The position numbers and the translations under genes are program-made. From positions 124,001 to 188,000 of the forward strand of contig JANJGN010001130.1 in the NCBI GenBank assembly GCA_026770705.1: a stretch of DNA of 64,000 nt. Direction: 5' to 3'. Of the stretch, positions 21,626-48,511 are shown piece by piece (within the stretch, counting starts at the first letter, position 1; every line of letters begins with the position of its first letter). This DNA comes from Isurus oxyrinchus. Taxonomy: Eukaryota. The notes beneath the pieces were generated by a model. It was not told the origin of the DNA, searched no databases, and saw nothing but the letters and a program-made list of their open reading frames with translations.

Positions 21626-22097
21626 GTAAGTGCTGTGTTATAATTACTCAACAATTCACATTCAACACTCAATGGGAAATAACACAAACTGTGACGTTTA
21701 CACATTAACACAAAACACAGCTTATTATAACACACTGTCTGATTCTCAATAACCTGGTGATAGCTTCCAGTTCAGTCCTAAAGCAACCTCTAATACTCAC
21801 TTTAATATCAATGATGAAAAACATTAACTGTATTCTCAGGTTATCCACTCCCATCAATCTCTCCTGTCCTGTTTAAAAGTCTGACGTATCGATAAAAGAA
21901 AGATGTGCATTTCTGCAGCGCAATTTACCACCTCAGGAGGATCCAAATCCCTTCACAGCCAATGAAATTATTCCTGAATTGTAGTCACAGATGTAAAACA
22001 CAGCAGGCAGTTTGTGCACAGCAAGATCCAACAAACCACAAGGTGATAAATCACCCAGATCACTGAGGAAATGAGAAGCCAGTGAACTCAAACCTCT

Positions 22098-22135
22098 GGT
22101 CTGATGAAGAGTCATACGGACTCGAAACGTTAACC
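22098..22135 (+). ncRNA. Hammerhead-like motif, unit 5 V-C2 intron
   Basis: Same motif as in unit 2. Confidence 0.55.
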
Positions 22136-22484
22136 CTGTCTTCCTCTCCACTGATACTGTCAGACCTGCTGAGTCTTTCCAGCAATTTTTGTTTTTGTTT
22201 CAGATTTCCAGCATCCACAGTATTCTGCTTTTAACTCCAATCTCTGGTCTGAGCCTCTTCTCTCATCCAGTGTTCTCAATTCACATGTCTCGGAGTGAAC
22301 GTGTATTAAGCTGAGAGACAGAAACACTACTGCCAAAGAGCAAGAAAATCTTTCCTGATCATTGTAACCTCTCAGTTCTGATATCATCCTTGTAAAAGTG
22401 CTTTCTCTTGTGGGACTGTGGTTTCTATTTGAACTGATGCTTCACGTTATATTTCTCTAAAAGGATCCATTCTCTGTCTGTTAG

Positions 22485-22781
22485 ATTTCACAGATAAACC
22501 CACGATATTCCCTGCTGAAATTATTGCAGGAAAGCGTGTGGATGTAAGCTGCACCTTCAACACAACATGCAATGGAACAGCAGCACCTGTCTTAACCTGG
22601 GACACTCCCACTGACGTACCTGGATCAGTCTCAAACACTGTAACTCAGCATGGTGTCACTCTGACCTATACTTCTGTTCTGACCCTGACCGCATCACTCA
22701 AACACCACGGACACACTCTCAGCTGCAGAGTGAGATATCCATCTGTTTCATCGGAGCGGACCCTCGTACTAACTGTGCAAG
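22485..22781 (+). CDS. Unit 5 C2-set exon
   Basis: 297 nt; DFTDKPTIFP..SCTFNTTCNG..LTW..HGHTLSCRV; three Cys as in Siglec domain 2. Confidence 0.9.
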
Positions 22782-23104
22782 GTAATTACATACACCTTTC
22801 ATTCTACATCAGCACTCCCTCAGCGCAGACCCTCTGACAGTGCAGCCCGTTCTCAGTACCCAAATTCTAAGGCCTCTCTAAGTGCTTCAAAGTCGATAGA
22901 AGTTAATTGATCTTTATTTGATTATTGCTGAATGAAGAGACAAGCTGTCTAAACTTTACATCTTGCACACAGCATTCTCTATGGCAACACCTCCACCTAT
23001 CAGAGACCACTTGCCAACCAATCAGCACTCTCTTCCCATTAAGTATAAATTGTTGTTCACTTTCTGTTGGTAATCCTGTGAACGGGCTTCTTGATTCCTG
23101 CCAT

Positions 23105-23249
23105 GACATCTGAATGTCCAAATGAACAGAACAAGTTCCAACAATGAGCTGTGGTTGGTGATTCCTCACGTTACATCCAGGAGACTATCAGTGTGTGGCA
23201 GAGAATGAACATGGAGCAGTGGATCGGTTCATAACCATCACTGTGGAAC
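23105..23249 (+). pseudogene. Unit 5 dead third-Ig half exon
   Basis: Only the 3' half of the 282-nt Ig exon remains; acceptor and 5' half replaced by repeat-like DNA; extra frameshifting deletion. Confidence 0.75.
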
Positions 23250-24918
23250 GTGAGTTACACAGACTTCAACATCTCTCTCAGATTTGAACACTACACAAAC
23301 ACCATCGAACACACACACATAAATAGACACGTGCAGACACACATATATGACCACACACAAAGACACACTCACACACAAACACTAACACTCACTCCCTCAA
23401 GTGTTACCTGACCTCCCTCAGTACTGCACAAGAGAGTTGGCCTGAATTCTGGGATTTGTGTTCCCATTCATATTTATGGAAGAATATGGAAATTACTATT
23501 ACAGACACTCAGATGCATAGAGACACTCACAGATACTCTCTGCGTCTCCAACTCTCTCTCTCCCTTTAAGAAGCTTCCTGAAACCGAACCCTTTGACAAA
23601 TCACCAACCCAACTCCTCCTTATCTGATTCTGTGTGATTTTCTTTGTGTATCTGAGAGTAAGAGAGAGTTGGAGAGGTTTAGGAAGAGAATTCCTGCTGG
23701 TGAAAAGCTTACATAATGTTCTCACTATTTCCGTGCACATAATTCCCATTATGTCCAATGCCCCTGTTTATAATGATGATTGCCTATGTAAACGTCACGC
23801 TGTAGTTACAGCCTCCCACCAGTGGTGGCATTGTAGCACTTAATCCTTGTGATTCCCAGTTTTCCCAGCAACTCTACTTCCCAGTTTGCTACACAAGCTG
23901 TGAGTTCTTCGGAATTCAATTATTTCTCAAACGGTAGATTTGATGTCATTTTATTGAAAACTTCCTGAGCTCATCCCTGAAGGGTTTACACTCTCCGGGA
24001 AGCAGGAATAGGCTGGATGTTGGGGAGTTCAACTTTTTCCAGAGAGTAGTGATCCTCGGGAATGTGCCGTCAGTGGGTGTGGTGGTTGCTGTTTCTCCGT
24101 CAACTTCAAGAGGGATCTGGAGTGGTTACTCACTGGGGGAGAGATCATGGAAGCGGAGAATGATACAGCACAGGAGGAGGCCATTCAGCCCATTGTGCCT
24201 GTGCCAGGTCTTTCAATGTTCTATCCCATCAGATCCACTAACCACCACTCCACTTTGCCCCCATCTTCCTCCTTCAAGTGTTTATCCAATTTCCCTTTTG
24301 AAAGTTCTTATTGAATCTGCTTCCACCGCCCTTTCAGGCAGAACCTTCCAGATCACAACAACTCGCTCTGTCAAAACAAATTCTCCTCATCTCCCCCTCT
24401 GGTTCTTCAATCTGTGTCCCTCTGGTTACCGACCCTCCTGCCCCTTAAATACATCGATCCTGTTCACCTCAACCACTCCCTGTGGGAGCGAGTTCCACAT
24501 TCTCCCCTCTCTCTGGGTAAAGATTGGAACTGTTTATTAAGCGGGGGGTGTATGTCCGTGGGGGAGTCCATCTCGATCCTGCCCTATTCGCACACGCGTC
24601 CGAGATGGATTTCCACCCGGCACTAAACGTTTCCAGAATTTTCTACAGCACAATCCTGTACACAGCGATGGAGAGAAACATTGGACAGGGAGTCCAACAG
24701 CACAATGATCCATTCTCACCAATGTTCCACGCTAAGGGGAAAGTTCCGATTGTCCACTCTTAGAGTGTTTACAATGAAAACATTCATTCCACATTGAATC
24801 CCAGTGGATGGGTCAATATTACAGCAAATGTTGCAGTGATATGAAGCTTGATTGTTCAGCCAGAGTGAGAGATTGAAAGCGGAGAGTCAGTGATGATTTC
24901 TTTCTGTGTGTTCTCTAG

Positions 24919-25058
24919 ACAGTGGAGGAGAGATTCTGCACGTGATCCTGATCCTGGGAATACGAGCTGTGATATTCCTTGTGGCTGTGGTTATCACTAT
25001 CGCTGGAGTCTGTGTCTGGGAGAGACAAACAGTGAAAGGAAGTCGACAGACTGTTTGA
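24919..25058 (+). CDS. Unit 5 TM + short tail exon with intramembrane Arg (activating type)
   Basis: TTCTCTAG|24919, phase 1: DSGGEILHVILILGIRAVIFLVAVVITIAGVCVWERQTVKGSRQTV*. Confidence 0.85.
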
Positions 25059-26399
25059 AGATTTGTACAGCAACAATCTCATCATGGAACAGAAGAACGG
25101 CATTTGGCCCATCGACTCCATGCTGTCTCTCTGTAAAGCAATACAGTCAGTTCCATTCCCCCGCTCTATCCCCGTATCCCTGCAAGTTTATTTCCCCTCA
25201 AGTGTCCATCCAATTTCCTTTTGAAATCGTTCATCGTCTCCGCTTCCACCATCCTCGTAGGCAGCGAGTTCCAGCTCATTACCACTCGCTGTGTAAAAAA
25301 GTTCCTCCTCACATCAACCCACTGCCCAAAACCTTCAATCTGTGTCCCCCAGTCCTTGTCCCATCAGCTAATGGCAACAGCTTCTCTTTGTCTACCTTAT
25401 CTAAACCCATCATCATCTTGTACACCTCGATCAGATCCCCGCTCAATCTCCTTTGCTCCAAGGAGAACAACCCCAGCTTCTCCAACCCAACCTTGTAGCT
25501 AAAATCCCTCATCCCTGGACCCATTCTGCTCAATCTCCTCCCCACCCTCTCAAGGACCCTCACTTCCTTCCCAAAGTGAGGAGACCAGAACTGGACACAA
25601 TACTCTAGTTGTGACCTAACCAGAGCTTTATAAATGTTCAGCATAACCTCCCTGTGTTTGTTCTCAATCCCTCGATTTATGAAAAGCTTATTCTTTCCAT
25701 CAGCACAAACAACAATTTCCAAGCGGACTCCCATCAGCAGACAGAGTGCAATGAAACATCGGCATGCCTGCTTCTTAATGTACGGAGAGAAACCTGGAAC
25801 GAGAGATTCTCCTTCTTCTCCTCAGCAAGCTGAAACTTTTCCTTATACCTGGTGCTCCCCAGTCCTGCTGTGTGGACACATCATAACCACGGCATTGTCT
25901 GGCTGTGTGCAGCCAACATGGTCGAATAGGAATGAACAGAAATGTGACATTGCTAAACTCTGTTCTCTGATTGGAATGTGCTTTCTGAATGCTGCACCTT
26001 TTTCATGCTGCGATAGATTGTAAGAAGCATTTGGGTTGTGAATAAAATTACATTGATTAACACAAGTGATTAAAATGCTCAGCCTGTTCTGTAAATATTT
26101 ATAGATTAAAATTCTTATTTTGCTGCCAAATTCTTGCCTCAAAGAAAAGCTTCTTGTTGTCACATTTTCTCCATCATATAAATTCCTGTGCCCATCCTTA
26201 TAATAGAAATTTCCAATGTAAACATGTCACATTGTAGTTGCACGCTCCTGCCAGTGGTGGTGCCATTCCAAAGCTGTCTTGCTGCACAGACACAGTGAGA
26301 ATTATTCTCGACTTGTACATGATGTTGTTGTTCCACAGACATTAGGCGGAATCTTGGGCAGTGCCTAGAATGCACTTAGGACAGTGCAGACCACGCTCA

Positions 26400-28220
26400 G
26401 AACTGACAGTGCAGCGTTTCATCAGTGCTGACCCTCCGTCAGTGCAGCGCTCCCTCATTACTGTCCCTCTGACAGTGCTGCACTACCTCATTATTGACCC
26501 TTTTCAAGTCCAGCACCCCGTCAGCACTGACCTTCTGACAGTGCAGCACTCCCTCATTGCTGACAATCTGACAGTGCAGCACTCCCTCAGTACTCTCCCT
26601 CCCACAGTGCAGTACTCCCTCAGTACTCACCCTCCCAAAGTGCAGCACTCCCTCAGTACTCACCCTCCCACAGTGCAGTACTCCCTCAGTACTCACCCTC
26701 CCAAAGTGCAGCATTCCCTCAGTACTCACCCTCCCACAGTGCAGCACACCCTCAGTACTCACCCATTCACAGTGCAGCACTCCATCAGTACTCACCCTCC
26801 CACAGTGCAGCACACCCTCAGTACTCACCCTCCCACAGTGCATCACTCCTCAGTACTCACCCTCCCACAGTGCAGCACACCCTCAGTACTCACCCTCCCA
26901 CAGTGCAGCACTCCATCAGTACTCACCCTCCCACAGTGCATCACTCCCTCAGTACTCACCCTCCCACAGTGCAGCACACCCTCAGTACTCACCCTCCCAC
27001 AGTGCAGCACTCCATCAGTACTCACCCTCCCACAGTGCAGCACACCCTCAGTACTCACCCTCCCACATTGCAGCACTCCCTCAGTACTCACCCTCCCACA
27101 GTGCAGCACACCCTCAGTACTCACCCTCCCACAGTGCAGCACTCCCTCAGTACTCACCTCCCACAGTGCAGCACTCCCTCAGTACTCACCCTCCCACAGT
27201 GCAGCACTCCCTCAGTACTCACCCTCCCACAGTGCAGCACTCCCTCAGTACTTACCCTCCCACAGTGCTGTGCGAGTTGTTTAAATCAAGACTGGTGCCC
27301 AAAGAGGGAGGTTTCAATGCTAAATCATTGAAATCGGTGAAAAATATTTTTAGGCTGAGGGGAACAAGACTTCGTTCCTCATATCCTTTCTTTAGCAATA
27401 ACACACAGTACTAGAATCTCTGTTTAAATAAATTCCAGTTAAACTTTGCCATGAAAGGATATCTTCTCACACACCGCTCTACCACAGTACTAACCCTCCC
27501 ACAGTCCGGCATCCCCTCAATACTGACCTCCGACTGTGCAAATCTCACCCAGTACAGACCCGCTGACAGTTCAGCACTCCCTTATTACTGATCCTCGGAC
27601 AGTGCAGCACTCCCACATTACTGTCCCTCTGACAGTGCAGCACTCCCACATTACTGACCCTCTGACAGTGCAGCACTCCCACATTACTGTCCCTCTGACA
27701 GTGCAGCACACCCTCAGTACTGACCCTCCGACATTGCAGCATTCCTTCACTACCTGCCCTCTGACAGTGCAGCACTCCCACGTTACTGACCCTCTGATAG
27801 TGCAGCAGACCCTCAGTACTGACTCCACTAACACTGCAGCACTCGCTCAGTACTGACCCTCCCACAGTGCAGCACTCCCTCAGTACTATACTCCTGACAG
27901 TGAAGCACTCCCTTATTAATGACGCTCTTCCAGTGCAGCACTTCCACCTTACTGACCCTCTGACAGTGCAGCACTCCCACATTACTGACCCTCTGACAGT
28001 GCAGCACTCCCACATTACTGTCCCTCTGACAGTGCAGCACTCCCTCAGTACTGACCCTCCGACATTGCAGCAATCCTTCACTACTGGACCTCTGACAGTG
28101 CAGCAATCCCACATTACTGACCTTCTGATAGTGCAGCACTCACTCAGTACTGACCCTCACACAGTGCAGCACTCCCTCAGTACTATATCCCTGACAGTGC
28201 AGCACTCCTTCAGTAATGAT
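26400..28220 (+). repeat. 33-bp minisatellite arrays (26400-27270 and 27480-28220)
   Basis: Tandem units; the first array is homogenised to the ACTCACCCTCCCACAGTG variant. Confidence 0.95.
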
Positions 28221-28437
28221 ATCAGGGATTGTCAACATGTATCATACGGCCAGAGACCTGTATTGGGAACTTTATCGCCTGCGCTTCAGCCTCTGAGGTG
28301 AGGGGGAGGGGTCTAATCCCACGGAGCCAATGGAGAAGCTTGATGACTACAGCTGCCCAAATATGAGCTGACAGATCACACATGGTAAACGTTTTGCTGA
28401 GAGCACAAAACATCCTCGATCTTCTCACTGGTTACCC

Positions 28438-28577
28438 ACTTCCTCATTTTGTCTCACAGAGACACATCAACCCTTTCTAATTAAACACACAGAGGGAGCA
28501 GCACAGGAAGAGGTCATTCAGCCCAAGCAGAGCGTGTGGGCAGTTCCTCCCCAGGCGAGCTGTCGGACAGGTCCTGG
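28438..28577 (+). promoter_or_regulatory. Unit 6 putative promoter/non-coding exon 1
   Basis: ACTTCCTCATTTT, donor GG|GTAAGT at 28578. Confidence 0.5.
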
Positions 28578-29027
28578 GTAAGTAATGGAACGATTGGAAT
28601 TCACTTTCACCACCAACACCGTCCTTTGTTGATGTTGTGACTTTATAAAGACAGATTCCAATGATTGATGCCTTTGAAAGATTTCTACTGGTTATTGACA
28701 TCTGGGTTTGAGGCTCAAGTCTGTTGTACAGAACATCTTTCTAGCTCAAGGGATGAGGGAAGAGCAGAGACATGAGCTTTGGGACATCCTGAGGTCGTGA
28801 AAGGTGCTATAGAAATGCAAGTCCTTCCTTGTTTTTCCTTCTTAAAGCCTTGTAACTCTCTGCAGAACATCTATCATCCCACAGAGAATCAAACTATTCT
28901 GTGAAGACATTGTCTAAAAGCAGTTCTGATCTCTCGAGAGCTGTCGGACAAGAGGTGAGGTCTTATTAACTCCTTTCTCTTTCAGAACTTCAGAGTTAGA
29001 TGCTGAGGAAATATCTGGGAGTGGACA

Positions 29028-29067
29028 ATGATCGGGAAATCTTACTTCCTCCTGTCACTTCTCCAAG
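29028..29067 (+). CDS. Unit 6 leader exon (activating-type receptor, 281 aa)
   Basis: MIGKSYFLLSLLQ, AAG|GTAATA. Confidence 0.8.
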
Positions 29068-30269
29068 GTAATATCATTGTCAGCTCAGACAGATTTATGG
29101 TGAATAATCTTTGTAAAAGATCATTCTTATAGAGCTGTGATTGGGAACTGATTCAGCAATGAGCCAGTGTACAAACTCACACCAAGTCCCATTCACCCAT
29201 CACCCCTGTGCTCACTGATATACACTGACTCCCTGTCTGACAGCAGAATTGGAGGAGAGCAGAGATCTCAGAGGGTTTTAGGGTTCGAGGAGGTTACACA
29301 GATAGAGAGTGTAGAGGGGGGATGGTGGGGTAAGAAATCAATGATGAGAATTTGAAATTTGAGTCATTGCTGGACTGAGAGTCAGTGTAGGTCAGCCAGT
29401 GACAGGGGAGCGATCGGCTGAATAGAGAAGCAGGGATAAAAACTGGGAGATGAGGTCTATCCTGATGCTAGGACTCGGATAACAATGCCCTGAAATTTTG
29501 TGTCTTTTGCTGATTTTAATCAGAATTTCCCATGAAGACAACACAGCAGCTCCTAGAATAGACAGGCTGTTCAGTGTCACACTTCCTGTCCATTCTCACC
29601 TTGCTAGATACTTCAATAAGGGAGCAAGATAACTGAAAGAGAGAAGGAAGGTAAAGCTGTCTGTGTGTAAAACTGTCAAATATTCTGAGTTCTCATGAGT
29701 GTCTCTGATCTGCTGCAGTGTTTAAATTTCACAGAATCTGAGCACTTTGCAGCTCAGAGAGAGACCATTGACTCACTGCCTGAAAGGGCGGTGGAAGCAG
29801 ATTCAACAGGAACTTTCAGAAGGGGAACTGGATAAATACTTGAAGGAGACATTTTGCAGGGCTGTGGAGGAGAGAGCAGAGGTTAGAGTGGGACTAATTG
29901 GACAGATCTTTCAAAAGCCCAGCACAGGCTCGATGGGCCAAATGGCTTCCTTTTGTTCTGGATCATTCTACAATCTGATAAATTAAGACCCACATCAATA
30001 ACTCTTAAGGCTCCAGCTGCAGGGATGGATCTTTGAGAAGGACAGGGAACAAGAGGTTTCTGGTATCATTTTCAATTTTATTGACAATTACATAACAGTA
30101 TAGATTTGTTGAATATTTGAGTGTCTAAGGAGTAGAGGTAATCTGCACTTACGCCCAGATCTTGTGGTGGTAACCTTGTCTGGAGGTGTCTTTAAATGCT
30201 CACAGTGATCTGTGGGATTGTCATTCTTGGATGTTGTCCCTGGTTCCAATTGGCATTTTATCCTTGATG

Positions 30270-33077
30270 CAACTGGGGAGGTTTTAAACTAACATGGCAG
30301 GGGATGGGATCCCGAGAGGAGGTTCAGCAGAGGGAGATGCACAGCCAAAATTAGAAGAGAGAGCAAGTGAACCTGGAAGGCAGAGAAATTATTGGCCAGT
30401 TAAGGCACAAGATAGCGTAGCAAAGTTGGATTGTATTTATTTTAATGCAAGGAGTCTGACGAATAAAGCAGATGAGTTGAGGTCACAAATAACACATGGA
30501 TGTATGATGTCATTGCTGTCCCAGAGACATGGTTGAGAGAGGGGCAGGATTGGCAGCTCAATATTACAGGATACAGGGTCTTCTGGCAAGACAGGGAAGG
30601 AGGTAAAAGAGGAGGGGGTATTGCAAGATTGATCAAGGAATCAGTTATTGCAGTGAGGAGGGAAGACACCTTAGGGGGCTCCTCAAATGAAGCCATATGG
30701 GTAGAACCTAAAAACAAATAAGGAGCAATCAGCTTGCTGGGAGTGTTCTACAGGCCCAATGACACTCAGAGAAATAGAAGTGCAGATACAAAGGCAAAAT
30801 TCAGAGAAGTATAAAAATAATCGGGTTGTAATGGTGGGGCTTTTCACCTTCCCCAACAATAACTGGGTTAGTCATAGTGTGATAGTTTTCGAGGGGGCAG
30901 AATTGTTAAAATGCATCCAGGAGAGATTTTTAAGCCAGTACATAGAAAATCCTACAAGAGAGGGGTCGGTCCTGGAGTAAATTTTAAGGAATGTAACCAG
31001 GCAAGTTGTAGACGTATCAGTGGGGGAGCATTGTGCAGATAGTGATCATCATTCCATTAGATTCTAGGTTGTTATGGAAAAGAACAAGGATGGGCCAGAA
31101 ATCTGATTTCTCAATTGGGGGAAGGCTGATTTTAATAAGATCAAATATGATTTGGCCAGAGTGGAACTGGGAGCAGCTACCTTTAGGGAAATCTGCGTCA
31201 GAGCAATGGGACTCATTCAGGAAGGAAGTGGGGAGAGCACAGGGCCAACATATTCCAGTAAAGGCAAAGGGTGGGACCAACAAATCCAGGGAATCCTGGA
31301 TGTCGAGAGATTTACAGGATTGGATAAAGAGAAAAAGGGAGGCTTATGGCAGATACCGAGGGCTCAAAACAGTGGAAGCCTTAGAAGAGTATAGAATGTG
31401 TAGGGGGGACCTTAAAAAGAAAATTAGTAGAGCAAAAATGGGGCATGAAGAAACATTAGCAGGAAAAATGAAGGAAAATCCAAAGTTATTTTACAAGTAC
31501 ATTAAGAGTAAGAGGCTAACTAGGGAAAGAGTAAGGCCCATTAAGGACCATATTGGTAGTTTGTGTGTGGAACCGGAAGATGTAGGTAGGGTTCTAAATG
31601 AACACTTTGTGTCAGTGTTCACAAGTGAGAGGGGCAATGTGGGTTTGGAAATCAGGCAGAAGGACTGTGATATAGTTAAAGAAATTAGAATAGAAAGGGA
31701 GGAGGTTCTAAGTGGTCTGGCAGTCTCAAACGTAGATATATCTGCAGGCCCGGATGAAATGTATCTCAGGCTGTTGAGTGAGGCAAAGGAGGAGATAGCA
31801 GGGGTGCTGGCAATAATTTTCAATACATCTCTGGCCAGAGGAGAGGTACCAGAGGACTGGAGGACAGCCAATGTGGTAGCGTTATTCAAGAAGTGAGGAA
31901 GGGATAAACCAGGGAACAACAGGTCAGTCAGTCTAACCTCAGTGGTGGGGAAACTATTGAAAGCAATTCTGAGGGACAGAATTAATCTACACTTGGAGAG
32001 GCAGGGATTAATCAAGGACAGTCAGCATGGTTTTGTTAAAGGGAGGTCATGTCTGACCAGTTTGATTGAATTTTTTGAAGAGGTGACCAATTGTGTAGAT
32101 GAGGGCAATGAATTTGACATAGTCAACTTGGACATCAGCAAGGCTTTTGATAAGGTCCAGCATGGGAGACTGTAAACAAAAGTAAGAGCACATGGGATCC
32201 AAGGGAATTTGGCAAATTGGATCCAGAATTGGCTGAGTGCCAGGAAGTAGAGGGTGATGGTCGACGGGTGTTTTTGTGACTGGATGCCTGTGTCCAGTGG
32301 GGTTCCACAGGGATCGGTGTTGGGTCTCTTGCTGTTTGTGGTATATATAAACGGTCTAAACTTGAATGTAGGAAGGTTGATCAGTGACTTCGCGGATGAT
32401 ATGGAAATTGATGGGGTGGTAAATAATGAAGAGGATAGCCTTAGATTACAGGGGGATATAGATGGGCTGGTCAGATGGGCTGATCAGTGCCAAATGGAAT
32501 TTAACCTGGATAAGTGTGAGGTGATGCACTTGGGCAGGATAAACAAGGCACAGGAATAGACAATGAATGGTAGGACCCTGGAAAGTAACAAGGATCAGAG
32601 GGACCTTGGTGTGCATGTCCACCGTTCCCTTAAAGTAGTGGGACAGGTGGATAAGGTGGTTAAGAAGGCATATGGAATACTTGCCTTTATTAGCCGAGAG
32701 ATAGAATATAAGAGCAGGGAGGTTATGCTGGAACTGTATAGAACACTGGTTAGGCCACAGCTAGAATATTGCGTGCAGTTCTGGAACCTGCATTATAGGA
32801 AGGATGTGATTGCCCTCGAGAGGGTGCAGAGGAGATTTACCAGGATGTTGCATAGATTGAATCTGGAACTCACTGCCTGAAAGGGTGGGAGAGGCAGAAA
32901 CCCTCATAACATTTAAGAAGTATTTGGATGTGCACTTGTGATGCCATCGCATACAAGGCTTTGGGCCCAGTGCATTAATGGGATTAGAATAATTAGGTAC
33001 TTGTTTGACCGACGCAGATTCGATGGGCCAAAGGGCCTTTTACTGTGCTGTAGAACCCTGTGAATCTATGACTCTAT
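30270..33077 (+). mobile_element. Decayed CR1-type LINE (APE endonuclease + RT) in the unit 6 leader-V intron
   Basis: Fragmented ORF2: CIYFNARS, ETW, QHGFVKGRSCLT, SKAFDKV, VPQGSVLG, FADD, LEYCVQFW; many stops and frameshifts; CTATGACT-type tail. Confidence 0.95.
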
Positions 33078-33226
33078 GGGCTGAATTTCCTGCCTGTCGG
33101 GGGGGTGGGCCTGAATATTTAAATGAGGCAGGATGATGTCAGGGTTTCCTCCTGATGTCATCCCGCATCATCATAGTGTCACTGAGCAGGCCCCGCCCCC
33201 TGCTCGCCAACGGGAAAATTCAGCCC
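33078..33226. mobile_element. Short MITE related to 17136-17770, inserted in the LINE tail
   Basis: TIRs GGGCTGAATTTCC ... GGAAAATTCAGCCC. Confidence 0.75.
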
Positions 33227-37380: not shown

Positions 37381-37932
37381 TGATTTTGCAATTTGTATTT
37401 ATTATGAGATGTGTGCACTGAATTCAGAAGCACTAATTACACCAAGAAAATTAGAGAATTAAAAAAATAAATTAAAATATTTGTCATCAAAATAAAAGGT
37501 TTCAAGCACATACATAAGACTACAATGACTGCTATAATAACTCCTCGAATTCCTAATTAACCTGATCCCCAGTTACACTCATTTTAAAGCAACAGACCAA
37601 AAATAGATGTAAGATTTAAAACAAACTCAGCAAGTTAACCCAATGCCCTGGACAGTGGAATTCCAAATGGATTTTCCCCAACTTCAGTTCTGTTGGATAG
37701 CAGGCTTGTGCACAAACAGGGTCCTGAGGACCATGAGCCAATGTAGAATGAACTTGTCCACTCCTGTGTCCAGGATTCCCTTCCATCCGTTGTGAAACCT
37801 TGGGGAGTTCCATGTGTGTCCTGTAGATGGTCCACACAGCAGCCACTGTGCCCCAGTGATGGAGGGAGTGGATATCGAGTCTAGTGGATCTACAAATTAT
37901 CCAGATTTAAATATTGATATTTCTCTCCCCAG

Positions 37933-38301
37933 TTGGACTGTCACAAGAATGGGAAAGTAACACTCCACGAGAGGTGACAGCGCAGGAAGGTTCATGTGTA
38001 CAGATTCCATGTCATTACAATTACCCATCACATTTGTTAGAGAAAACACGTGTCGGAATCTGGAATATGAGGAGGGACAAATGGAATACATTGTCTATAG
38101 CCTTTCACTCCAAGGATCACAGTCACGATTTACCACGGTTCCACCATCGGACCCGGCTGTCTGGAGACCTGAAAGATGGCGACTGTTCCCTGATTATAAA
38201 CAACATCACACGGGAAGATGCAGGACCTTATTTTTTCAGAATAGAATTTGACAATGGTCCGAGCCATAACTATTACCCTGTAACCCAGCTTCACGTTTCT
38301 G
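37933..38301 (+). CDS. Unit 6 V-set exon (most divergent C-C' region)
   Basis: 369 nt open; EGSCVQIPC...RVGIWNMRRDKWNTLSIAF...GPYFFRIE. Confidence 0.9.
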
Positions 38302-40024
38302 GTAAGTGCTGTGTTATAATTACTCAACAATTCACATCCAACACTCAATGGGAAATAATAGTGTTTGATTTGCTTGTTTTTTGGCCGTGTTAACCAGCGT
38401 CACTATTTTTAATGATTTGTCTATTTCTGCTCCCAGATCCATGAGCTTATTGTGTGTGATTGAATCGACATCATAGCTGTAACGTAAACCGAGCTGAGGG
38501 GTGATGACACCTCCCCCCTGAATGACGTGTCTCCTCCCCACTACACCTTCCACCCCTCACACCGTCAGGACTGACCTGGTGACAGTGCGGAGCTTATCAC
38601 CAAATCACACCTTGGCCTGACCCCCACCCCCACCTCCTCTGGCACTTTCTGCTCCTTTGAATATCTCACCGTGTTCCACCCCTCTCATCTCTCCTTCTAA
38701 ATTCTCGTTCTCTATCGCTGATCACTCCAGGAATGATAAACATCTTCGCCCCGGGATATCTTCACTGCTTTCCTCCCTCCGTCTCTGCACCGACTGAATT
38801 CCCATCCTCGGAGATCTCAATCTCCATCTCATCTCATCCCGCTCGGTTATTCCAACTCACTCCTGGCTGGTCTCGCACATTCTACCCTCTGTAAACTTGG
38901 GGTCATCTAAAACTCAGCTGCCCCTGTCGTAACCAGCAGTAACTCCCGTTCCCTTATCCCCCCCTGTACTCTCTGACCTTGAATGGCTCCTGGACAAGCA
39001 ATGTCTTGATTTCAAAATGCTCGTCCTTGCTTCCTCCCTATCTCTGTAATCTCCTCCTGTGCGACAGCCTTCCCAGATTTCTGCACTCCTCTACCTCTGG
39101 ACTCTTCAGCATCCCTGATTTCCATCGCTCCAGCATGGACGGCCAAGCCTTCAGTAGCCTGGGTCCTGAGACTTAAATCCTTTCATCTTTCTATCTCCTC
39201 CTTTAAGGTGCTCCTTAAAACCCACCTCTTCAACCAAAGTTCTGATTATCTGACCTAATATCTCCTTATATGGCGTGGGACCATACTTTCTATTATAATG
39301 CTCCTGTGGAGCACCTTGGCATGTTATATTACAATATAGGCACTATATAAATATAATCTATTGTTCTATGCTCCTCTAGACCATTTAGATTCTTAATTTT
39401 GAGTTAACATGCAACCTGGTAACCTGGTGATAGCTTCCAGTTCAGTCCAAAAGCAAACTCTAATAATCACGTTTAATATCAATGATTAAATGTATTGACT
39501 GTGTCCATCAATGTTATCAGGTTATCCACTCCCATCAATCTCTCTAATCCTGTCTCGAAGTCTGACATATCGACAGAAGAATGATTCACATTTCTGTAGC
39601 ACCTTTCACCACCTCAGCACAGACCAAATCATTTCACAGCCAATGAGCTGATTCCTGAATTGTAGTTACTGTTGTAATGTGGGAAACACAACAACCAATT
39701 TGCGCACAGCAAGCTCCCACAAATTGACAGGTAACAAATGGCCCAGATCGCTGAGTGAATGATGGAGTAGTGCACTCCAAACTCTGGTCTGCTCCTCCAC
39801 CCTCACCCACTATTATCAGTTCAAGTTTCTCGGAGTGAACGTATATTAAGCTGAGAGACAGAAACACCAAAGTCTCAAAGCAGGAAATTCTCTCCTGATC
39901 GTTGTAACCTCTCAGATCTGATATCATCCTTGTAAAAGTGCTTTCTTTTGTGGGACTGTGATTTCTATTTGAACTGATGCTTCACGTTATATTTCTCTAA
40001 AAGGATCCATTCTCTGTCTGTTAG

Positions 40025-40321
40025 ATTTCACAGATAAACCCACGATATTCCCTGCTGAAATTATTGCAGGAAAGCGTGTGGATGTAAGCTGCACCTTCAA
40101 CACAACGTGCAATGGAACAGCAGCACCTGTCTTAACCTGGGACACTCCCACTGACGTACCTGGATCAGTCTCAAACACTGTAACTCAGCATGGTGTCACT
40201 CTGACCTATACTTCTGTTCTGACCCTGATCCCATCACTCAAACACCACGGACACAATCTCAGCTGCAGAGTGAGATATCCATCTGTTTCATCGGAGCGGA
40301 CCCTCGTACTAACTGTGCAAG
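40025..40321 (+). CDS. Unit 6 C2-set exon
   Basis: 297 nt open, AG/GT intact. Confidence 0.9.
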
Positions 40322-40644
40322 GTAAGTACGGACACCCTTCATTCTACATCAGCACTCCCTCAGCGCTGACCCTCTGACAGTGCAGCCCATTCTCAGTATC
40401 CATATTCTCAGGCCACTCAAAGTGCTTCACAGTCGATAGAAGTTAACTGATCTTTAATTGATTATTGCTGAATGAAGTGACAAGCTGTCTAAACTTTACA
40501 GCTTGCACACGTTATTTTCCATGGCAACACCTCCTCTAATCAGAGACCACTTGCCAACCAATCAGCACTCTCTTCCCTTTAAATATAAATTGTTGTTCAT
40601 TTTCTGTTGGTAAACCTGCGAGCTGTCTTGTTGAGTCCTGCCCT

Positions 40645-40797
40645 GACATCTCAATGTCACAATGAACAGAACAAGTTCCAACAACGAGCTGTGGTTGGTG
40701 ATTCCTCACGTTACATCCAGGGACACTGGAGACTATCAGTGTGTGGCAGAGAATGAACATGGAGCAGTGGAGGTGTCCATAACCATCACTGTGGAAC
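40645..40797 (+). pseudogene. Unit 6 dead third-Ig half exon
   Basis: Same 5' lesion as in units 3 and 5. Confidence 0.75.
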
Positions 40798-41920
40798 GTG
40801 AGTGTGCACAGACTTCAACATCACTCTCAGGTTCAAACACTACACAAATACACACAAATATACAGACCTAAGCAGACACCTGCAGACACACAATCCCACA
40901 TGTATGAGTACACACAAAGACACACTCACAAACAAACACCCTATCACATACTGCCCTGTGGGTTACCTGACCTCCCTCAGTGCTGCACCGGACTATTGAC
41001 CTCGATTCTGGGTTTTGTGTTCCCTTTCATATTTATGGAAGAATATGGAAATTGCAAGGTCTATTACAGACACTCAGATGCACAGAGATACTCAGATGCA
41101 CAGAGATACTCACAGATACACTCTGCCTCTCCAACTCTCTATCCTCCTTTAAGAAGTTTCCTGAAACCTAATCCTTTGACGAGTCACCTGTCCTAACTCC
41201 TCTTACATGATTTTGTGTGAAATTTTGTTTGAGTATCTGAGAGTAAGAGAGAGGTGGAGAGGTTTAGGAAGGGAATTCCTGTTGTTGAAAAGCTTAGATC
41301 ATGTTCTCAGCTTTCCAGTGCCCATTTTTCACATGATGTCCATGTTCATAATGGGGATTGCCTATGTAAACGTCACGCTGTAGTTACACTCTCCCACCAG
41401 TGGTGGCACGGTCACACTTAACCCTTGCATCCCCAAGCTTTTCAAGCAATTTCCCTTCCTAATTTGCTACTATTCACCTCGACCACTCCCTGTGGGAGCG
41501 AGTTCCACATTCTCCCCTCTCTCTGGGTAAAGATTGGAACTGTTTATTAAGCGGGGGGTGTAAGTCTGTTGGGGAGGCCATCTCGATCCTGCCCGATTCG
41601 CACACGTGTCCGAGATGGATTTCCACCCTGCACTAAACGTTTCCAGAATTTTCTACAACACAATCCTGTACACAGCGATGGAGAGAAAAATTGGACAGGG
41701 AGTCCAACAGCACAATGATCCATTCTCACCAATGTTCCACGCTAAGGGGAAAGTTCCGATTGTCCACTCTTAGAGTGTTTACAATGAAAACATTCATTCC
41801 ACATTGAATCCCAGTGGATGGGTCAATAATACAGCAAATGTTGCAGTGATATGAAGCTTGATTGTTCAGCCAGAGTGAGAGATTGAAAGCGGAGATGATT
41901 TCTTTCTGTGTGTTCTCTAG

Positions 41921-42060
41921 ACAGTGGAGAAGAGATTCTGCACGTGATCCTGATCCTGGGAATACGAGCTGTGATATTCCTTGTGGCTGTGGTTATCACT
42001 ATCGCTGGAGTCTGTGTCTGGGAGAGAAAAACAGTGAAAGGAAGTCGACAGACTGTTTGA
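41921..42060 (+). CDS. Unit 6 TM + short tail exon with intramembrane Arg
   Basis: DSGEEILHVILILGIRAVIFLVAVVITIAGVCVWERKTVKGSRQTV*. Confidence 0.85.
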
Positions 42061-43404
42061 AGCTTTGTGCAGCAACAATCTCATTATGGAACAGAAGGAC
42101 GGCATTCAGCCCATCGACTCCATGCTGTCTCTCTGTAGAGCAATACAGTCAGTCCCATTCCCCCGCTCTATCCCCGTATCCCTGCAAGTTTATTTCCCCT
42201 CAAGTGTCCGTCCAATTTCCGTTTGAAATCGTTCATCGTCTCCGCTTCCACCATCCTAGTAGGCAGCGAGTTCCAGCTCATTACCACTCACTGTGTAAAA
42301 AAGTTCCTCCTCACATCCCCCCTCTGCCCAAAACCTTCAATCTGTGTCCCCCAGTCCTTGTACCATCAGCTAATGGCAACAGCTTCTCTTTGTCTGCCTG
42401 ATCTAAACCCATCATCATCTTGTACACCTCGATCAGATCCCCCCTCAATCTCCTTTGCTCCAAGGAGAACAACCCCAGCTTCTCCAACCCAACCTTGTAG
42501 CTAAAATCCCTCATCCCTGGACCCATTCTGCTCAATCTCCTCCCCACCCTCTCAAGGACCCTCACTTCCTTCCCAAAGTGAGGAGACCAGAACTGGACAC
42601 AATACTCTAGTTGTGACCTAACCAGAGCTTTATAAATGTTCAGCATAACCTCCCTGTGTTTGTACTCAATCCCTCAATTTATGAAAAGCTTATTCTTTCC
42701 ATCAGCACAAACAGCAATTTCCAAGCGGACTCCCATCAGCAGACAGAGTGCAATAAAACATCGACATGCCTGCTTCTTAATGTACGGAGAGAAACCTGGA
42801 ACGAGAGATTCTCCTTCTTCTCCTCAGCAAGCTGAAACTTTTCCTTATACCTGGTGCTCCCCAGTCCTGCTGTGTGGACACATCATAACCACGGCATTGT
42901 CTGGCTGTGTGCAGCCAACATGGTTGAATAGGAATGAACAGAAATGTGACGTTGCTAAACTCTGTTCTCTGATTGGAATGTGCTTTCTGAATGCTGCACC
43001 TTTTTCATGCTGCGATAGATTGTAAGAAGCATTTGGGTTATGAATAAAATTACATTGATTAACACAAGTGATTAAAATGCTCAGCCTGTTCTGTAGATAC
43101 TTATGGATTAAAATTCTTATTTTGCTGCCAGATTCTTGCCTCAAAGAAAAGCTTCTTGTTGTCACATTTTCTCTATTATATAAATTCCTGTGCCCATCCT
43201 TATAATAGAAATTTCCCATGTAAACATGTCACATTGTAGTTTCACACTCCTGCCAGTGGTGGTGCCATTCCAAAACTGTCTTGCTGCACAGACACAGTGA
43301 GAAATATTCTCGATGTGTACATGATGTTGTTGTTACACAGACATCAGGCGGAATCTTGGGCAGTGCCTAGAATGCACTTAGGACAGTGCACACCACACTC
43401 AGAA

Positions 43405-45060
43405 CTGACAGTGCAGCGTTTCCTCAGTGCTGACCCTCCGTCAGTGCAGCGCTCCCTCATTACTGTCCCTCTGACAGTGCTGCACTACCTCATTATTGAC
43501 CCTTTTCAAGTGCAGCACCCCGTCATCATTGACCTTCTGACCGTGCAGCACTCCCTCATGGCTGACACTCTGACAGTGCAACAATCCCTGAACACTGACC
43601 CTCTGATACTGTACCCCTCCATCACTAATGACTTTCCAACAGTTCAGCACTCCCTAGGTACAGACCCTCTGACAGGGCAGCATTCCATCAGTATTCAAAC
43701 TCCCACTATGCAGCTGTCCCTCAGGATTCTCCCCCCCACAATGCAGCACTCCCTCAGTACTCTCCCTCCCACAGTGCAGTACTCCCTCAGTACTCACCCT
43801 CCCACAGTGCAGCAATCCCTCAGTACTCTCACTCCCACAGAGCAGTACTCCCTCAGTACTCACCCTCCCACAGTGCAGCACTCCCTCAGTACTCACCGTC
43901 CCACAGTGCAGCACACCCTCAGTACTCACCCTCCCACAGTGCAGCACTCCATCAGTACTCACTCTCCCAAAGTGCAGCACTCCCTCAGTACTCACCCTCC
44001 CACAGTGCAGCACTCCCTCAGTACTCACCCTCCCACAGTGCAGCACACCCTCAGTACTCACCCTCCCACAGTGCTGTGCGAGTTGTTTAAATCAAGACTG
44101 GTGCCCAAAGAGGGAGGTTTCAATGCTAAATCATTGAAATCGGTGAAAATTATTTTTAGGCTGAGGGGAACAAGACTTAGTTCCTCATATCCTTTCTTTA
44201 GCAATAACACACAGTACTAGAATCTCTGTTTAAATAAATTCCAGTTAAACTTTGCCATGAAAGGATATCTTCTCACACTCCTCTCTACCTCAGTACTAAC
44301 CCTCCCACAGTCCGGCACCCCCTCAATACTGACCCTCCGACTGTGCAAATCTCACTCAGTACAGACCCGCTGACAGTTCAGCACTCCCTCATTACTGATC
44401 CTCTGACTGTGCAGCACTCCCTCATTAAGGACCCTCTTCCAGTGCAGCACTCCCACATTACTGTCCCTCTGACAGTGCAGCACTCCCACATTACTGACCC
44501 TCTGACAGTGCAGCACTCCCACATTACTGTCCCTCTGACAGTGCAGCACTCCCTCAGTACTGATCCTCCGACATTGCAGCATTCCTTCACTACTGGCCCT
44601 CTGACAGTGCAGCACTCTCACATTACTGACCCTCTGATAGTGCAGCAGACCCTCAGTACTGACCCCACTAACAGTGCAGCACTCGCTCAGTACTGACCCT
44701 CCCACAGTGCAGCACTCCCTCAGTACTATACTCCTGATAGTGAAGTACTCCCTTATTAATGACCCTCTTCCAGTGCAGAACTCCCACATTACTGACCCTC
44801 TGACAATGCAGCACTCCCACATTACTGACACTCTGACAGTGCAGCACTCCCACATTACTGTCCCTCTGACAGTGCAGCACTCCCTCAGTACTGACCCTCC
44901 GACATTGCAGCAATCCTTCACTACTGGCCCTCTGACAGTGCAGCAATCCCACATTACTGACCTTCTGATAGTGCAGCACTCACTCAGTACTGACCCTCAC
45001 ACAGTGCAGCACTCCCTCAGTACTATACCCCTGACAGTGCAGCACTCCTTCAGTAATGAT
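43405..45060 (+). repeat. 33-bp minisatellite arrays (43405-44075 and 44290-45060)
   Basis: Tandem units; paralogous to 26400-28220. Confidence 0.95.
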
Positions 45061-45277
45061 ATCAGGGATTGTCAACATGTATCATACGGCCAGAGACCTG
45101 TATTGGGAATTCTATCGCCTGCGCTTCAGCCTCTGAGATGAGGGGGAGGGGTCTAATCCCACGGAGCCAATGGAGAAGCTTGATGACTACAGCTGCCCAA
45201 ATATGAGCTGACAGATCACACATGGTAAACGTTTTGCTGAGAGCACAAAACATCCTCGAACTTCTCACTCATTACCC

Positions 45278-45417
45278 ACTTCCTCATTTTGACTCACAGT
45301 GACACATCCACCCTTTCTAATTAAACACACAGAGGGAGCAGCACAGGAAGAGGTCATTCAGCCCAAGCAGAGCGTGTGGGCAGTTCCTCCCCAGGCGAGC
45401 AGTCGGACAGGTCCTGG
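45278..45417 (+). promoter_or_regulatory. Unit 7 putative promoter/non-coding exon 1
   Basis: ACTTCCTCATTTT, donor GG|GTAAGT at 45418. Confidence 0.5.
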
Positions 45418-45867
45418 GTAAGTAACGGAACGATTGGAATTCACTTCCACCACCAACACCGTCCTTTGATGATGTTGTGACTTTATAAAGACAGATTCCA
45501 ATGATTGATGCCTTTGAAAGATTTCTACTGATTATTGAGATCTGGGTGTGAGGCTCAAGTCTGTTGTACAGAACATCTTTCTAGCTCAAGGGATGAGGGA
45601 ATTGCAGAGACATGAGCTTTGGGACATCCTGAGGTGGTGAAAGGTGCTATGGAAATGCAAATCCTTCATTGTTTTACCTTCTTAAAGCCTTGTAACTCTC
45701 TGCAGAGCACCTATCATCCCACAGAGAATCAAACTATTCTGTGAAGACATTGTCTAAAAGCAGTTCTGATCTCTCGAGAGCTGTTGGACAAGAGGTGAGG
45801 TCTCATTAACTCCTTTCTCTTTCAGAACTTCAGAGTTAGATGCTGAGGAAATATCTGGGAGTGGACA

Positions 45868-45907
45868 ATGATCGGGAAATCTTACTTCCTCCTGTCACTT
45901 CTCCAAG
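45868..45907 (+). CDS. Unit 7 leader exon (inhibitory-type Siglec-like receptor, 596 aa)
   Basis: MIGKSYFLLSLLQ, AAG|GTAATA. Confidence 0.85.
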
Positions 45908-46767
45908 GTAATATCATCGTCAGCTCGGACAGATTTATGGTGAATAGTCTTTGTAAAAGAACATTCTTACGGAGCTGTGATTGGGAACCGATTCAACAGT
46001 GAGCCAGTGTACAAACTCACACCAAGTCCCATTCACCCATCACCCCTAAACTATCTGACTCCTGGTCCTACAACATCTCAAACTTAAAATTCACATCTCT
46101 TTGTTCAAATGCATCCATTGCCTCACACTGTGTCCTTATCTCTGTAACCTCCTGCAACTCTCCCAACCAACGTCCCAGATCTCTGTGTTACTCCAATTCC
46201 GGCCTCTTGACCATCCCTCGATTCCCATCACTCCAATACTGGCGGCTGGGCCTTCAGCTGCCTGGGGCCTGAGCTCTGGAATTCACTCCCTAAACCTCGG
46301 CGATGGAGGAGCTCAGAGGGTTTCATTTTACTGAAAACCACCACGACTACATCACAGCTGCAGTCAGAATAGACAGAGAGTCCAGCCCTCGCACTTCCTG
46401 CACAGTTTCACCATAGCAACACAATAAGGAAGTAAAATAACTGAAAGTTAAACCGAAGCCAAAGCAGTCAGTTTAGAGAGATGAGATATTTACACAGTTT
46501 CCCTGTGTGTCTTGTAGACACTGCGTTGGGTGGAAGACTGGCTTCACTAAACAGGGTCCTGAGGACCATGAGCCAATGTAGAATGAACTTGTCCACTCCT
46601 GTGTCCAGGATTCTCTTCCATCCATTATGAAACCTTGGGGAGTTCCATGTGTGTCCTGTAGATGGTCCTCACTGCAGCCACTGTGCTCCAGAGATGGAGG
46701 GGGTGGATATCGAGTCTAGTGGATCTACAAACCATTCGGAGTTAAATATTGATATTTCTCTCCCCAG

Positions 46768-47136
46768 TTGGACTGTCACAAGAGTGGAAAGGTGACACTC
46801 CACGAGAGGTGACAGCGCAGGAAGGTTTCTGTGTACAGATTCCATGTCATTACAGTTATCCATCACATTTGGAAAATCAACCGCGAGGTGGAGTCTGGTT
46901 TAATAATGAGAAACAGATTCCCTGGGCTCCTATTGCCTTTCACTCCAAGGATCACAGTCACGAGTTACCACGGTTCCGCCATCGGACCCGGCTGTCTGGA
47001 GACCTGAAAGATGGCGACTGTTCCCTGATTATAAACAACATCACACGGGAAGATGCAGGACCTTATTTTTTCAGAATAGAATTTGACAATGGTCCGAGCT
47101 ATAACTATTACCCTGTAACCCAGCTTCATGTTTCTG
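46768..47136 (+). CDS. Unit 7 V-set exon
   Basis: 369 nt open; EGFCVQIPC, DCSL, GPYFFRIEFDNGPSYNY. Confidence 0.9.
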
Positions 47137-47608
47137 GTAAGTGCTGTGTTATAATTACTCAACAATTCACATTCAACTCTCAATGGGAAATAACACAAAC
47201 TGTGACGTTTACATATTAAAATAAAACAAAGCTTATTATAACACACTGTCTGATTCTCAATAACCTGGTGATAGCTTCCAGTTCAGTCCTAAAGCAACCT
47301 CCAATACTCACTTTAATATCAATGATGAAAAGCATTAACTGTATTATCAGGTTATCCACACCCATCAATCTCTCCTGTCCTGTTTAAAAGTCTGACGTAT
47401 CGATAAAAGAAAGATGTGCATTTCTGCAGCGCAATTTACCACCTCAGGAGGATCCAAATCCCTTCACAGCCAATGAAATTATTCCTAAATTGTGGTCACA
47501 GATGTAAAACACAGCAGTCAGTTTGTGCACAGCAAGATCCAACAAACCACAAGGTGATAAATAACCCAAATCACTGAGGAAATGAGAAGCCAGTGAACTC
47601 AAACCTCT

Positions 47609-47646
47609 GGTCTGATGAAGAGTCATACGGACTCGAAACGTTAACC
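47609..47646 (+). ncRNA. Hammerhead-like motif, unit 7 V-C2 intron
   Basis: Same motif as in unit 2. Confidence 0.55.
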
Positions 47647-47995
47647 CTGTCTTCCTCTCCACTGATACTGTCAGACCTGCTGAGTCTTTCCAGCAATTTT
47701 TGTTTTTGTTTCAGATTTCCAGCATCCACAGTATTCTGCTTTTAACTCCAATCTCTGGTCTGAGCCTCTTCTCTCATCCAGTGTTCTCAATTCACATGTC
47801 TCGGAGTGAACGTGTATTAAGCTGAGAGACAGAAACACTACTGCCAAAGAGCAAGAAAATCTTTCCTGATCGTTGTAACCTCTCAGTTCTGATATCATCC
47901 TTGTAAAAGTGCTTTCGCTTGTGGGACTGTGGTTTCTAGTTGAACTGATGCTTCACGTTATATTTCTCTAAAAGGATCCATTCTCTGTCTGTTAG

Positions 47996-48292: not shown

Positions 48293-48511
48293 GTAAGAAC
48301 GGACACCCTTCATTCTACATTAGCTAGAAAGCTCTACTTAGTACATTGCAAGATCCCACAATTGCATTGTGTTTAGCAACAAATCAATAGTCTTTAACTG
48401 ATACAAATTCACCTCTGACACTGCAGCAGTCCCTGAATACTGATTCTCCAACACTGCAGCACTCCCTCAGTACTGAGTCTTGTTCACAATGAAATCTTTA
48501 ACTGTTCTTAG

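What the first reader, a model, noticed from the sequence alone, without database searches (positions are those of the whole stretch)
21626..47995. Insertion markers show that the 5' and 3' halves of the genes have different histories (gene conversion/exon shuffling)
Seen: the ~135-bp hammerhead-bearing insertion in the V-C2 intron, flanked by an imperfect ~20-bp duplication AACTC(C)AA..CTCTGGTCTGA, is present in units 1, 2, 3, 5 and inhibitory unit 7. Activating unit 6 has the empty site (~39774-39791). In contrast, the dead third-Ig exon, Arg-TM exon and 3' UTR LINE group units 3, 5 and 6 against unit 7. Inference: the ligand-binding 5' half has been exchanged between activating and inhibitory genes, as established for SIGLEC5/14 and SIGLEC11/16.
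Basis: partly seen in the sequence, partly recalled or inferred. Interest (0 to 1): 0.7.

Follow-up and report, generated by a model that had tools for sequence, protein, structure and literature searches.

The report
Shark Siglec genes swap modular parts
In a shark, several hundred sugar-sensing immune-receptor genes carry the same outer parts on both likely activating and likely inhibitory tails, most likely because the genes keep copying short and long pieces from one another, much as human paired Siglec receptors do.

Summary
Observation confirmed. A 128-bp Penelope-type hammerhead repeat with a flanking duplication lies in the V-C2 intron of units 1, 2, 3, 5 and 7. Unit 6's empty site is ancestral, not a deletion: 118 such sites genome-wide, 0 empty sites on filled-type flanks. 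The window samples a shark Siglec family of about 450 tailed genes. The insertion marks one of four old intron lineages (20-35% apart); lineages A, B and C each occur on both activating-type and inhibitory-type tails (AU p=0.0001). Exchange is therefore well supported, but not as one '5' half' swap. The C2 exon, the intron ends and even the dead Ig half-exon are only 2-4% apart, with the C2 block lying between linked, diverged flanks (29 of 29, 17 of 17), and V-domain loops are mixed combinatorially. Across sharks, C2 domains group by order, not by tail class. Donor direction, conversion versus crossover for tail swaps, and selection are untested. This is a new member of a known kind (SIGLEC11/16, Xenopus ceacam). 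The scan noted family-wide exchange before on another piece of this genome (e1-9572213).

The parts
22085..22104 (+). Unit 5 left repeat (target duplication plus probable microhomology with the element start); equivalents at 577, 6131, 11620, 47596
22105..22232 (+). 128-bp Penelope-type repeat fragment; minimal hammerhead core at 22101-22131, helix I mostly lost; marks intron lineage A
22233..22252 (+). Unit 5 right repeat; equivalents at 725, 6279, 11768, 47744
39773..39791 (+). Ancestral empty site in unit 6 (intron lineage B)
1..1215 (+). Unit 1: V 3' end, lineage-A intron, C2 truncated at 1215
4380..6769 (+). Unit 2: leader, V 5306-5671, lineage-A intron, C2 truncated at 6769
9867..15302 (+). 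Unit 3: activating-type pseudogene (in-frame stop in V 10793-11161), lineage-A intron, C2 12020-12316, dead Ig half, Arg membrane exon, LINE fragment
17865..18740 (+). Unit 4: leader remnant, B-like intron fragment with the insertion site deleted, C2 18416-18712, no V
20355..25660 (+). Unit 5: open activating-type gene: leader 20355-20394, V 21257-21625, lineage-A intron, C2 22485-22781, dead Ig half 23105-23249, Arg membrane exon from 24919, LINE fragment 25101-25660
19762..22809 (+). Block shared with unit 7 (45275-48320) at 96.4%: upstream region, leader, V, intron A, C2, 28 bp of the next intron
22361..22809 (+). Homogenised C2 block (last about 120 bp of intron, C2 exon, 28 bp), about 2-3% apart across all four intron lineages; unit 6 equivalent about 39900-40349
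37933..42662 (+). Unit 6: open activating-type gene: V 37933-38301, lineage-B intron 38302-40024, C2 40025-40321, dead Ig half 40645-40797, Arg membrane exon from 41921, LINE fragment; candidate leader far upstream at 29028-29067
45868..56670 (+). Unit 7: open inhibitory-type gene: leader, V 46768-47136, lineage-A intron 47137-47995, C2 47996-48292, two Ig exons (49245, 50187), membrane exon 51271-51367, two tandem cytoplasmic ends (52091-53783; 54929-56670)

Best explanation
These are members of a shark Siglec family of several hundred genes whose parts have different histories, most likely because paralogues recombine again and again wherever they still share a block of homology. Shown: four old V-C2 intron lineages, of which only A carries the insertion; A, B and C each sit on activating-type and inhibitory-type tails; exons and the nearest 55-120 intron bases are nearly identical across lineages while intron cores are 20-35% apart. 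Inferred: (1) short conversion patches of about 450 bp keep the C2 block alike without exchanging its flanks; (2) longer transfers, by long conversion tracts or unequal crossovers resolved in the C2 or Ig blocks, put a promoter-leader-V-intron A-C2 cassette on different tails; (3) still shorter exchanges mix the ligand-contact loops inside V; (4) segmental duplication multiplies the products. The process is probably driven by homology, since a dead half-exon stays close to live exons too; selection for matched activating and inhibitory receptors would act on the products but is untested. The insertion is a passive marker removed by splicing.
For: All four marker-by-tail combinations occur: on contig C52, of 36 filled sites 14 link to inhibitory and 12 to activating tails (10 unlinked), and of 29 B-type empty sites 19 link to activating and 4 to inhibitory tails (6 unlinked). 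Lineage-A cores differ by 2.4% between activating and inhibitory genes, the same as within a class, against 23.6-28.5% between lineages; C2 four-fold sites differ by 1.1-4.6% and the non-coding last 120 intron bases by 2.4-3.5% between lineages (92 genes). Flanks of C2 stay linked in 29 of 29 A and 17 of 17 non-A genes with the activating post-C2 intron. Dead Ig halves are a median 2.7-4.0% from live Ig exons while adjoining introns of A and B genes are 11-15% apart. Units 5 and 6: 3 to 72 differences per 300 columns, reached in 0 of 10,000 permutations. In V, incompatibility rises with distance, 0 of 2,000 permutations as low. In 88 elasmobranch C2 domains, taxonomic group needs 6 changes (minimum 5) and tail class 24, while the activating anchor already exists in catsharks.
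Against: One assembly only, with these genes on contigs of 0.2-4 Mb; some counts may include both haplotypes, and no junction was checked in raw reads. The V tree does not reject lineage-A genes as one clade (p-AU 0.089). Exchange is incomplete: 17 of 44 activating V exons have no inhibitory V above 90% in the sample, only 9 of 44 have one at 97% or more, and one loop type is activating-only (16 of 16). Marker and tail are still associated (C: 25 inhibitory, 2 activating; D: activating only, 5). The cross-species tree has 97 columns, unsettled bootstrap values and automatic tail labels. Activating and inhibitory functions are read from motifs only.
Confidence: 0.8

Rival explanations
1. Single unequal crossovers only: chimeric genes arise by one crossover in C2 or an Ig exon and are then duplicated; no gene conversion is needed.
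For: Clear one-junction chimeras exist, such as G000:C71:2390007, which has unit 7's intron A, post-C2 intron and two full Ig exons joined to the activating anchor. Truncated and fused units are common. For the tail swaps this cannot be told from long conversion tracts with these data.
Against: A C2 block 2% apart between flanks that stay linked (29 of 29 and 17 of 17) needs two breakpoints per event; so does the alternating identity of units 5 and 6.
Confidence: 0.1
2. No exchange: birth-and-death duplication with strong purifying selection keeps the exons alike, and tail classes arose more than once.
For: The family has many pseudogenes and recent duplicates (22 of 44 activating V+C2 units broken; a 25-kb copy at 99.27%).
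Against: Four-fold sites, 120 non-coding intron bases and a dead half-exon are as alike as coding sites. The membrane exons are 97-100% identical within a class across intron lineages and the tail classes are shared with other shark orders.
Confidence: 0.04
3. The marker-tail combinations are assembly artefacts of a collapsed or mis-joined repeat cluster.
For: Hundreds of 96-99% identical units on separate small contigs; no raw-read check of junctions was obtained.
Against: A second contig (C385) repeats units 6-7 at 99.27% over 25 kb. Filled intron plus inhibitory tail occurs in 18 genes on five contigs with several distinct Ig arrangements. The cross-species pattern uses other species' gene models.
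Confidence: 0.04
4. Unit 6 lost the insertion by precise deletion between the two repeats, so the marker says nothing about exchange.
For: A single repeat copy is what recombination between the repeats would leave.
Against: Unit 6's flanks belong to lineage B, 21-24% from A; 118 B-type empty sites exist; lineage C, and D by its 3' flank, are also empty; no empty site on A-type flanks was found with up to 2 mismatches.
Confidence: 0.02

Closest known systems
Primate SIGLEC11/SIGLEC16 (PMC5701461; abstract, Background and passages read); SIGLEC5/14 (search listing only; details recalled)
   Same: Inhibitory and adaptor-coupled Siglecs share an about 3-kb block from upstream of the gene through V and C2 exons; the activating side is often broken (SIGLEC16P; here 22 of 44 broken against 1 of 50).
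   Different: Those are one-to-one pairs. Here about 450 genes and at least three tail classes exchange at several blocks, with no fixed partner seen. Orthology to primate genes was not tested. The Arg lies near the outer end of the predicted helix and the adaptor is unknown.
Xenopus and mammalian CEACAM paired receptors (PMC5112662, passages read; PMC2832619, search listing only)
   Same: Conversion limited to an exon and its splice sites, with diverged introns around it and variable ligand-face loops.
   Different: There the N (ligand) exon is converted. Here the most uniform block is the C2 exon, tracts run 55-120 bases or more into introns, and the window's genes are in tandem orientation, not head to head.
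Minimal hammerhead motifs of Penelope-like elements (PMC4209133, passages read; PMC6155905, passages)
   Same: Conserved core, helix II, no helix III beyond a palindromic pair, widespread short copies.
   Different: The window's copy is 5'-truncated and keeps 1 helix-I pair next to the core against 4 or more in 11 of 25 dispersed copies; no link to a Penelope coding element was tested.
Large paired-receptor clusters such as KIR, LILR, Ly49, chicken CHIR and fish NITR/LITR (recalled, no call)
   Same: Expansion, pseudogenes, domain shuffling, activating members derived and lost often.
   Different: Different protein families; not compared here.

Membership tests
Siglec | N-terminal V-set domain closest to Siglec V domains | tested here: met
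   Pfam V-set and Ig_CD22; best solved relatives Siglec-5, Siglec-7, MAG, E 1e-15 to 2e-14
Siglec | Essential F-strand arginine | tested here: met
   Aligned with the Siglec-5/7 Arg; Arg in 66 of 70 stop-free V exons that matched the motif, Lys in 4
Siglec | V followed by C2-type domain(s), membrane helix | tested here: met
   splice joints leader-V, V-C2 and C2-anchor in 4 of 4 RNA-guess runs
Siglec | Binds sialic acid | not testable with these tools
   needs a glycan array
CD33-related Siglec subfamily | Orthology to the mammalian CD33-related cluster | not tested
   automatic names of shark relatives vary; no tree with mammalian Siglecs was built
Paired receptors | Similar ectodomains on charged-helix and tyrosine-motif tails | tested here: met
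   Units 5 and 7: V 97.6%, C2 96.3%; Arg anchor with a short tail; unit 7 ends in TxYxxI, with an ITIM-like site that ends in I in the second tail and is degenerate in the first
Paired receptors | Opposite signalling, same cells, same ligands | not testable with these tools
   motif inference only
Gene conversion | Homogenised tract including neutral sites, bounded on both sides by linked diverged flanks | tested here: met
   C2 block:
Gene conversion | Non-reciprocal transfer with a known donor for the 5' cassette | tested here: inconclusive
   lineage A is about equally common on both tails and star-like in the tree
Penelope minimal hammerhead | Core, helix II and palindromic 15.2-16.2 pair | tested here: met
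   Rfam gave no hammerhead match at E up to 1
Penelope minimal hammerhead | Helix I and self-cleavage | tested here: not met
   1 pair next to the core in 5 of 5 window copies; no unusual fold, z -0.3 to -0.7; cleavage itself not testable

The most novel reading that the evidence does not exclude
Sharks build a combinatorial germline repertoire of glycan receptors: across about 450 Siglec genes, discrete ligand-contact loops of the V domain are exchanged as cassettes and coupled to three signalling tails, with the many broken activating genes serving as a donor pool, and this has kept the C2 domains lineage-specific through shark evolution.
Probability: 0.25. Interest if true: 0.72.

Novelty: new member of a known kind. 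Interest (0 to 1): 0.45.

Why it matters
Paired-receptor conversion is known from mammals and frogs; this extends it to cartilaginous fish and from gene pairs to a family of hundreds. The insertion and the four intron lineages give neutral markers with which tract lengths, donor direction and the role of selection can be measured. That a dead exon stays close to live exons suggests that homology alone can keep such receptors matched. Three literature searches (listings only; the library lacks most subscription journals) showed no paper on a shark Siglec expansion.

Tried and rejected
Rfam scan: no hammerhead family matched, three chance hits. Folding the insert: no stability beyond shuffles, so no role is claimed for it. 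Flanking duplications in dispersed copies: of 25 copies 13 had a recognisable 3' end; 1 passed the score cut-off (L169, 14 of 14) and 1 more shows a 14-base repeat below it (L183); controls 0. So a duplication is possible for this family but not the rule. Lineage-A genes as one V clade: not rejected. Read depth was not used, because contigs cannot rank genes. No DNA read data were obtained, so junction checks and dating of the insertion in other species remain open. Second-position versus four-fold differences in 55 V exons (5.9% vs 4.5%) were not taken as evidence of positive selection, because recombination biases them. GENECONV and RDP were not run; permutation, four-gamete and AU tests stood in. 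No structure or complex prediction was run. Supplementary files of papers were not opened.
Full report
What the window holds. Seven tandem units of a Siglec-type gene lie on the + strand. The V exon matches Pfam V-set and Ig_CD22, and its best solved relatives are Siglec-5, Siglec-7 and MAG, with the essential arginine aligned. The closest database proteins come from white shark and basking shark at up to 93-95% identity, so the host is probably a mackerel shark (inference). Units 1 and 2 end inside C2, unit 3 has a stop in V, unit 4 has no V. Units 5 and 6 read openly as leader-V-C2-anchor with an arginine in the predicted membrane helix and a short tail; unit 7 reads as leader-V-C2-Ig-Ig-anchor with tyrosine-motif tails. 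The labels activating and inhibitory rest on these motifs alone. Contigs of four runs guessed to be RNA (three samples) show the joints leader-V, V-C2 and C2-anchor, the last skipping the dead Ig half-exon; they may come from any family member.

The marker. The insertion and its flanking repeat are present in units 1, 2, 3, 5 and 7 and absent in unit 6. It belongs to a dispersed repeat: a 33-base piece has 730 exact matches in the genome, and 25 fetched copies are 84-96% identical to the window's over 46-128 bases. Its core fits the minimal hammerhead of Penelope-like elements (PMC4209133, passages), but the window's copy keeps only one helix-I pair next to the core. I treat it as a passive marker.

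Is unit 6 a deletion? No. The genome has 166 filled junctions, 118 empty sites of unit 6's type and no empty site on filled-type flanks. An alignment of 14 representative introns shows four lineages, A (filled), B, C and D. With the element left out, a tree of 88 intron cores gives A, B and C as groups at 100, 97 and 100. The insertion is thus a derived state of lineage A.

The family. Exact-pattern counts give 227 activating-type and 219 inhibitory-type membrane exons; a third tail class also exists. These counts may include both haplotypes. I fetched stretches around 39 of the best activating and 39 of the best inhibitory matches, 35 of the other filled sites on C52, extensions and flanks, and found 125 C2 exons. 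This sample is anchored, not random. By intron lineage and tail: A 29 activating, 18 inhibitory, 4 third, 8 without tail; B 14, 3, 1 and 1 unseen; C 2 and 25; D 5 activating and 1 unseen; 13 with the site deleted or not assignable; 1 row mis-parsed. Near-identical C385 copies of units 6 and 7 are included there and dropped from the trees. The listed positions on C52 give the same picture without that anchoring: filled 14 inhibitory, 12 activating, 10 unlinked of 36; B-empty 4, 19 and 6 of 29.

Discordance. In 92 genes, lineage-A cores differ by 2.4% between activating and inhibitory members and by 2.2-2.4% within a class, against 23.6-28.5% (5' core) and 20.6-35.1% (3' core) from other lineages. 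Activating genes are rejected as a clade on the intron core (p-AU 0.00014) and on V (p-AU 3.5e-6).

But the unit of exchange is not the 5' half. Between lineages, C2 differs by 2.0-2.8%, its four-fold sites by 1.1-4.6%, the first 55 intron bases by 1.7-3.1% and the last 120 by 2.4-3.5%. Among 46 genes with the activating post-C2 intron, the left and right flanks of C2 stay linked in 29 of 29 and 17 of 17, with 11.1% between A and B genes there. A uniform block between linked, diverged flanks needs two breakpoints, which is the pattern of conversion. The dead Ig half is a median 2.7-4.0% from live Ig exons (46 against 111; live-live 1.3%), which suggests homology rather than function drives this. 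In the window, unit 5 against unit 6 runs 94-98%, 68% (middle of V), 96-100%, 70-87% (intron core), 97-99% (C2), 74-94% (tail introns) and 95-99% (anchor). A spacer behind the anchor groups units 5 and 6 against 3, the reverse of the intron. Units 5 and 7 share 3.05 kb from upstream of the leader to 28 bp past C2, much like the about 3-kb SIGLEC11/16 block (PMC5701461, Background), but unit 7 is no closer to unit 5 than other A members are.

Inside V. Among A carriers V exons differ by 12%. In 99 genes the loop behind the C strand falls into four types (6 unclassified): one on 14 activating, 38 inhibitory and 3 third-class tails; one on 8, 10 and 1; one on 16 activating only; one on 2 activating and 1 third-class. 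The three common types each combine with both variants of the loop behind the essential arginine, and site incompatibility rises from 0.13 to 0.44 with distance. The strand names come from the alignment to Siglec-5 and -7 and from recall; that these loops set glycan specificity is recalled, not tested. Against a simple reading: only 9 of 44 activating V exons have an inhibitory match at 97% or more and 17 of 44 have none above 90%; A carriers are not rejected as a V clade (p-AU 0.089). V+C2 is intact in 49 of 50 inhibitory and 22 of 44 activating genes (Fisher p 2e-8, copies not independent).

Depth in time. Of 117 database relatives, 85 had both a C2 domain and an assignable tail. With three window domains, the C2 tree needs 6 changes for taxonomic group (minimum 5) and 24 for tail class; activating members as a clade are rejected (p-AU 0.0099). 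The activating anchor is 82% identical in catsharks, and the other two tails occur across sharks and rays. Old tails with lineage-specific C2 domains point to long-running concerted evolution. Limits: 97 columns, unsettled bootstrap, automatic labels and gene models.

Mechanism and what is open. Best reading (0.8): recurrent recombination between paralogues at shared blocks, with short conversion patches, longer cassette transfers by conversion or unequal crossover, and duplication of the products. Not shown: donor direction, the mechanism of the tail swaps, selection, function, and the correctness of each assembled junction.

Novelty. The process is known from primate Siglecs and Xenopus ceacam genes (PMC5112662, passages). 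Searches (listings only) showed nothing on shark Siglec clusters. The scan already proposed family-wide exchange on another piece of this genome (e1-9572213); this report adds the neutral markers, counts and tests. New member of a known kind; interest 0.45.

Noticed in passing
G000 contigs C52, C71, C121, C150, C189, C323, C385, C546, C557, C646, C1130 and others: The Siglec family has about 450 tailed copies (227 activating-type, 219 inhibitory-type anchors; 552 first-look C2 candidates); haplotype duplicates not removed.
   Followed up: partly
G000:C1130:117290 and C52 loci L087, L091, L102: A third tail class: uncharged anchor 76% identical to unit 7's, ending in two tyrosine motifs spaced like an imperfect ITAM; present across sharks and rays.
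   Followed up: partly
G000:C52: Activating and inhibitory anchors alternate along the contig more often than chance: 75 switches against a mean of 59.3, p 0.003.
   Followed up: no
window 51476-52739 and 54319-55577: Unit 7's cytoplasmic exons are duplicated in tandem (96%); the first copy has a degenerate ITIM-like site, the second a better one, which could allow alternative tails.
   Followed up: partly
L089, L095, L098, L099, L105, L108, L111, L112, L116, L118: Inhibitory lineage-A genes with 7 to 9 near-identical Ig exons, against 0 to 2 in lineage C: stalk length varies by exon duplication.
   Followed up: no
G000:C385:5593-30592: A 25-kb copy of window 29150-54175 at 99.27%, with a different upstream neighbour; allele or recent duplication. 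Unit 6's candidate leader at 29028 lies just outside the shared block.
   Followed up: partly
window 21932-22171: A contig of a run labelled as another organism (X19) crosses the left junction of the insertion with 13 differences in 240 bases, so lineage A may predate a species split.
   Followed up: no
fetched V exons: One V-loop type occurs only on activating tails (16 of 16), many of them broken.
   Followed up: no
L004, L024, L041, L042, L139 and others: Many B- and C-type genes carry tandem V exons, up to five in a row.
   Followed up: no
window 1204-2155, 2720-3572, 6778-7741, 18906-19527, 26380-28219, 43405-45059: Arrays of a 33-base minisatellite lie at the truncation points of units 1 and 2 and between units; a role in rearrangement was not tested.
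   Followed up: no
window 30300-33050: A decayed LINE with reverse-transcriptase matches; the fragment behind the activating stop matches its 3' part at 77% over 133 bases in reverse.
   Followed up: partly
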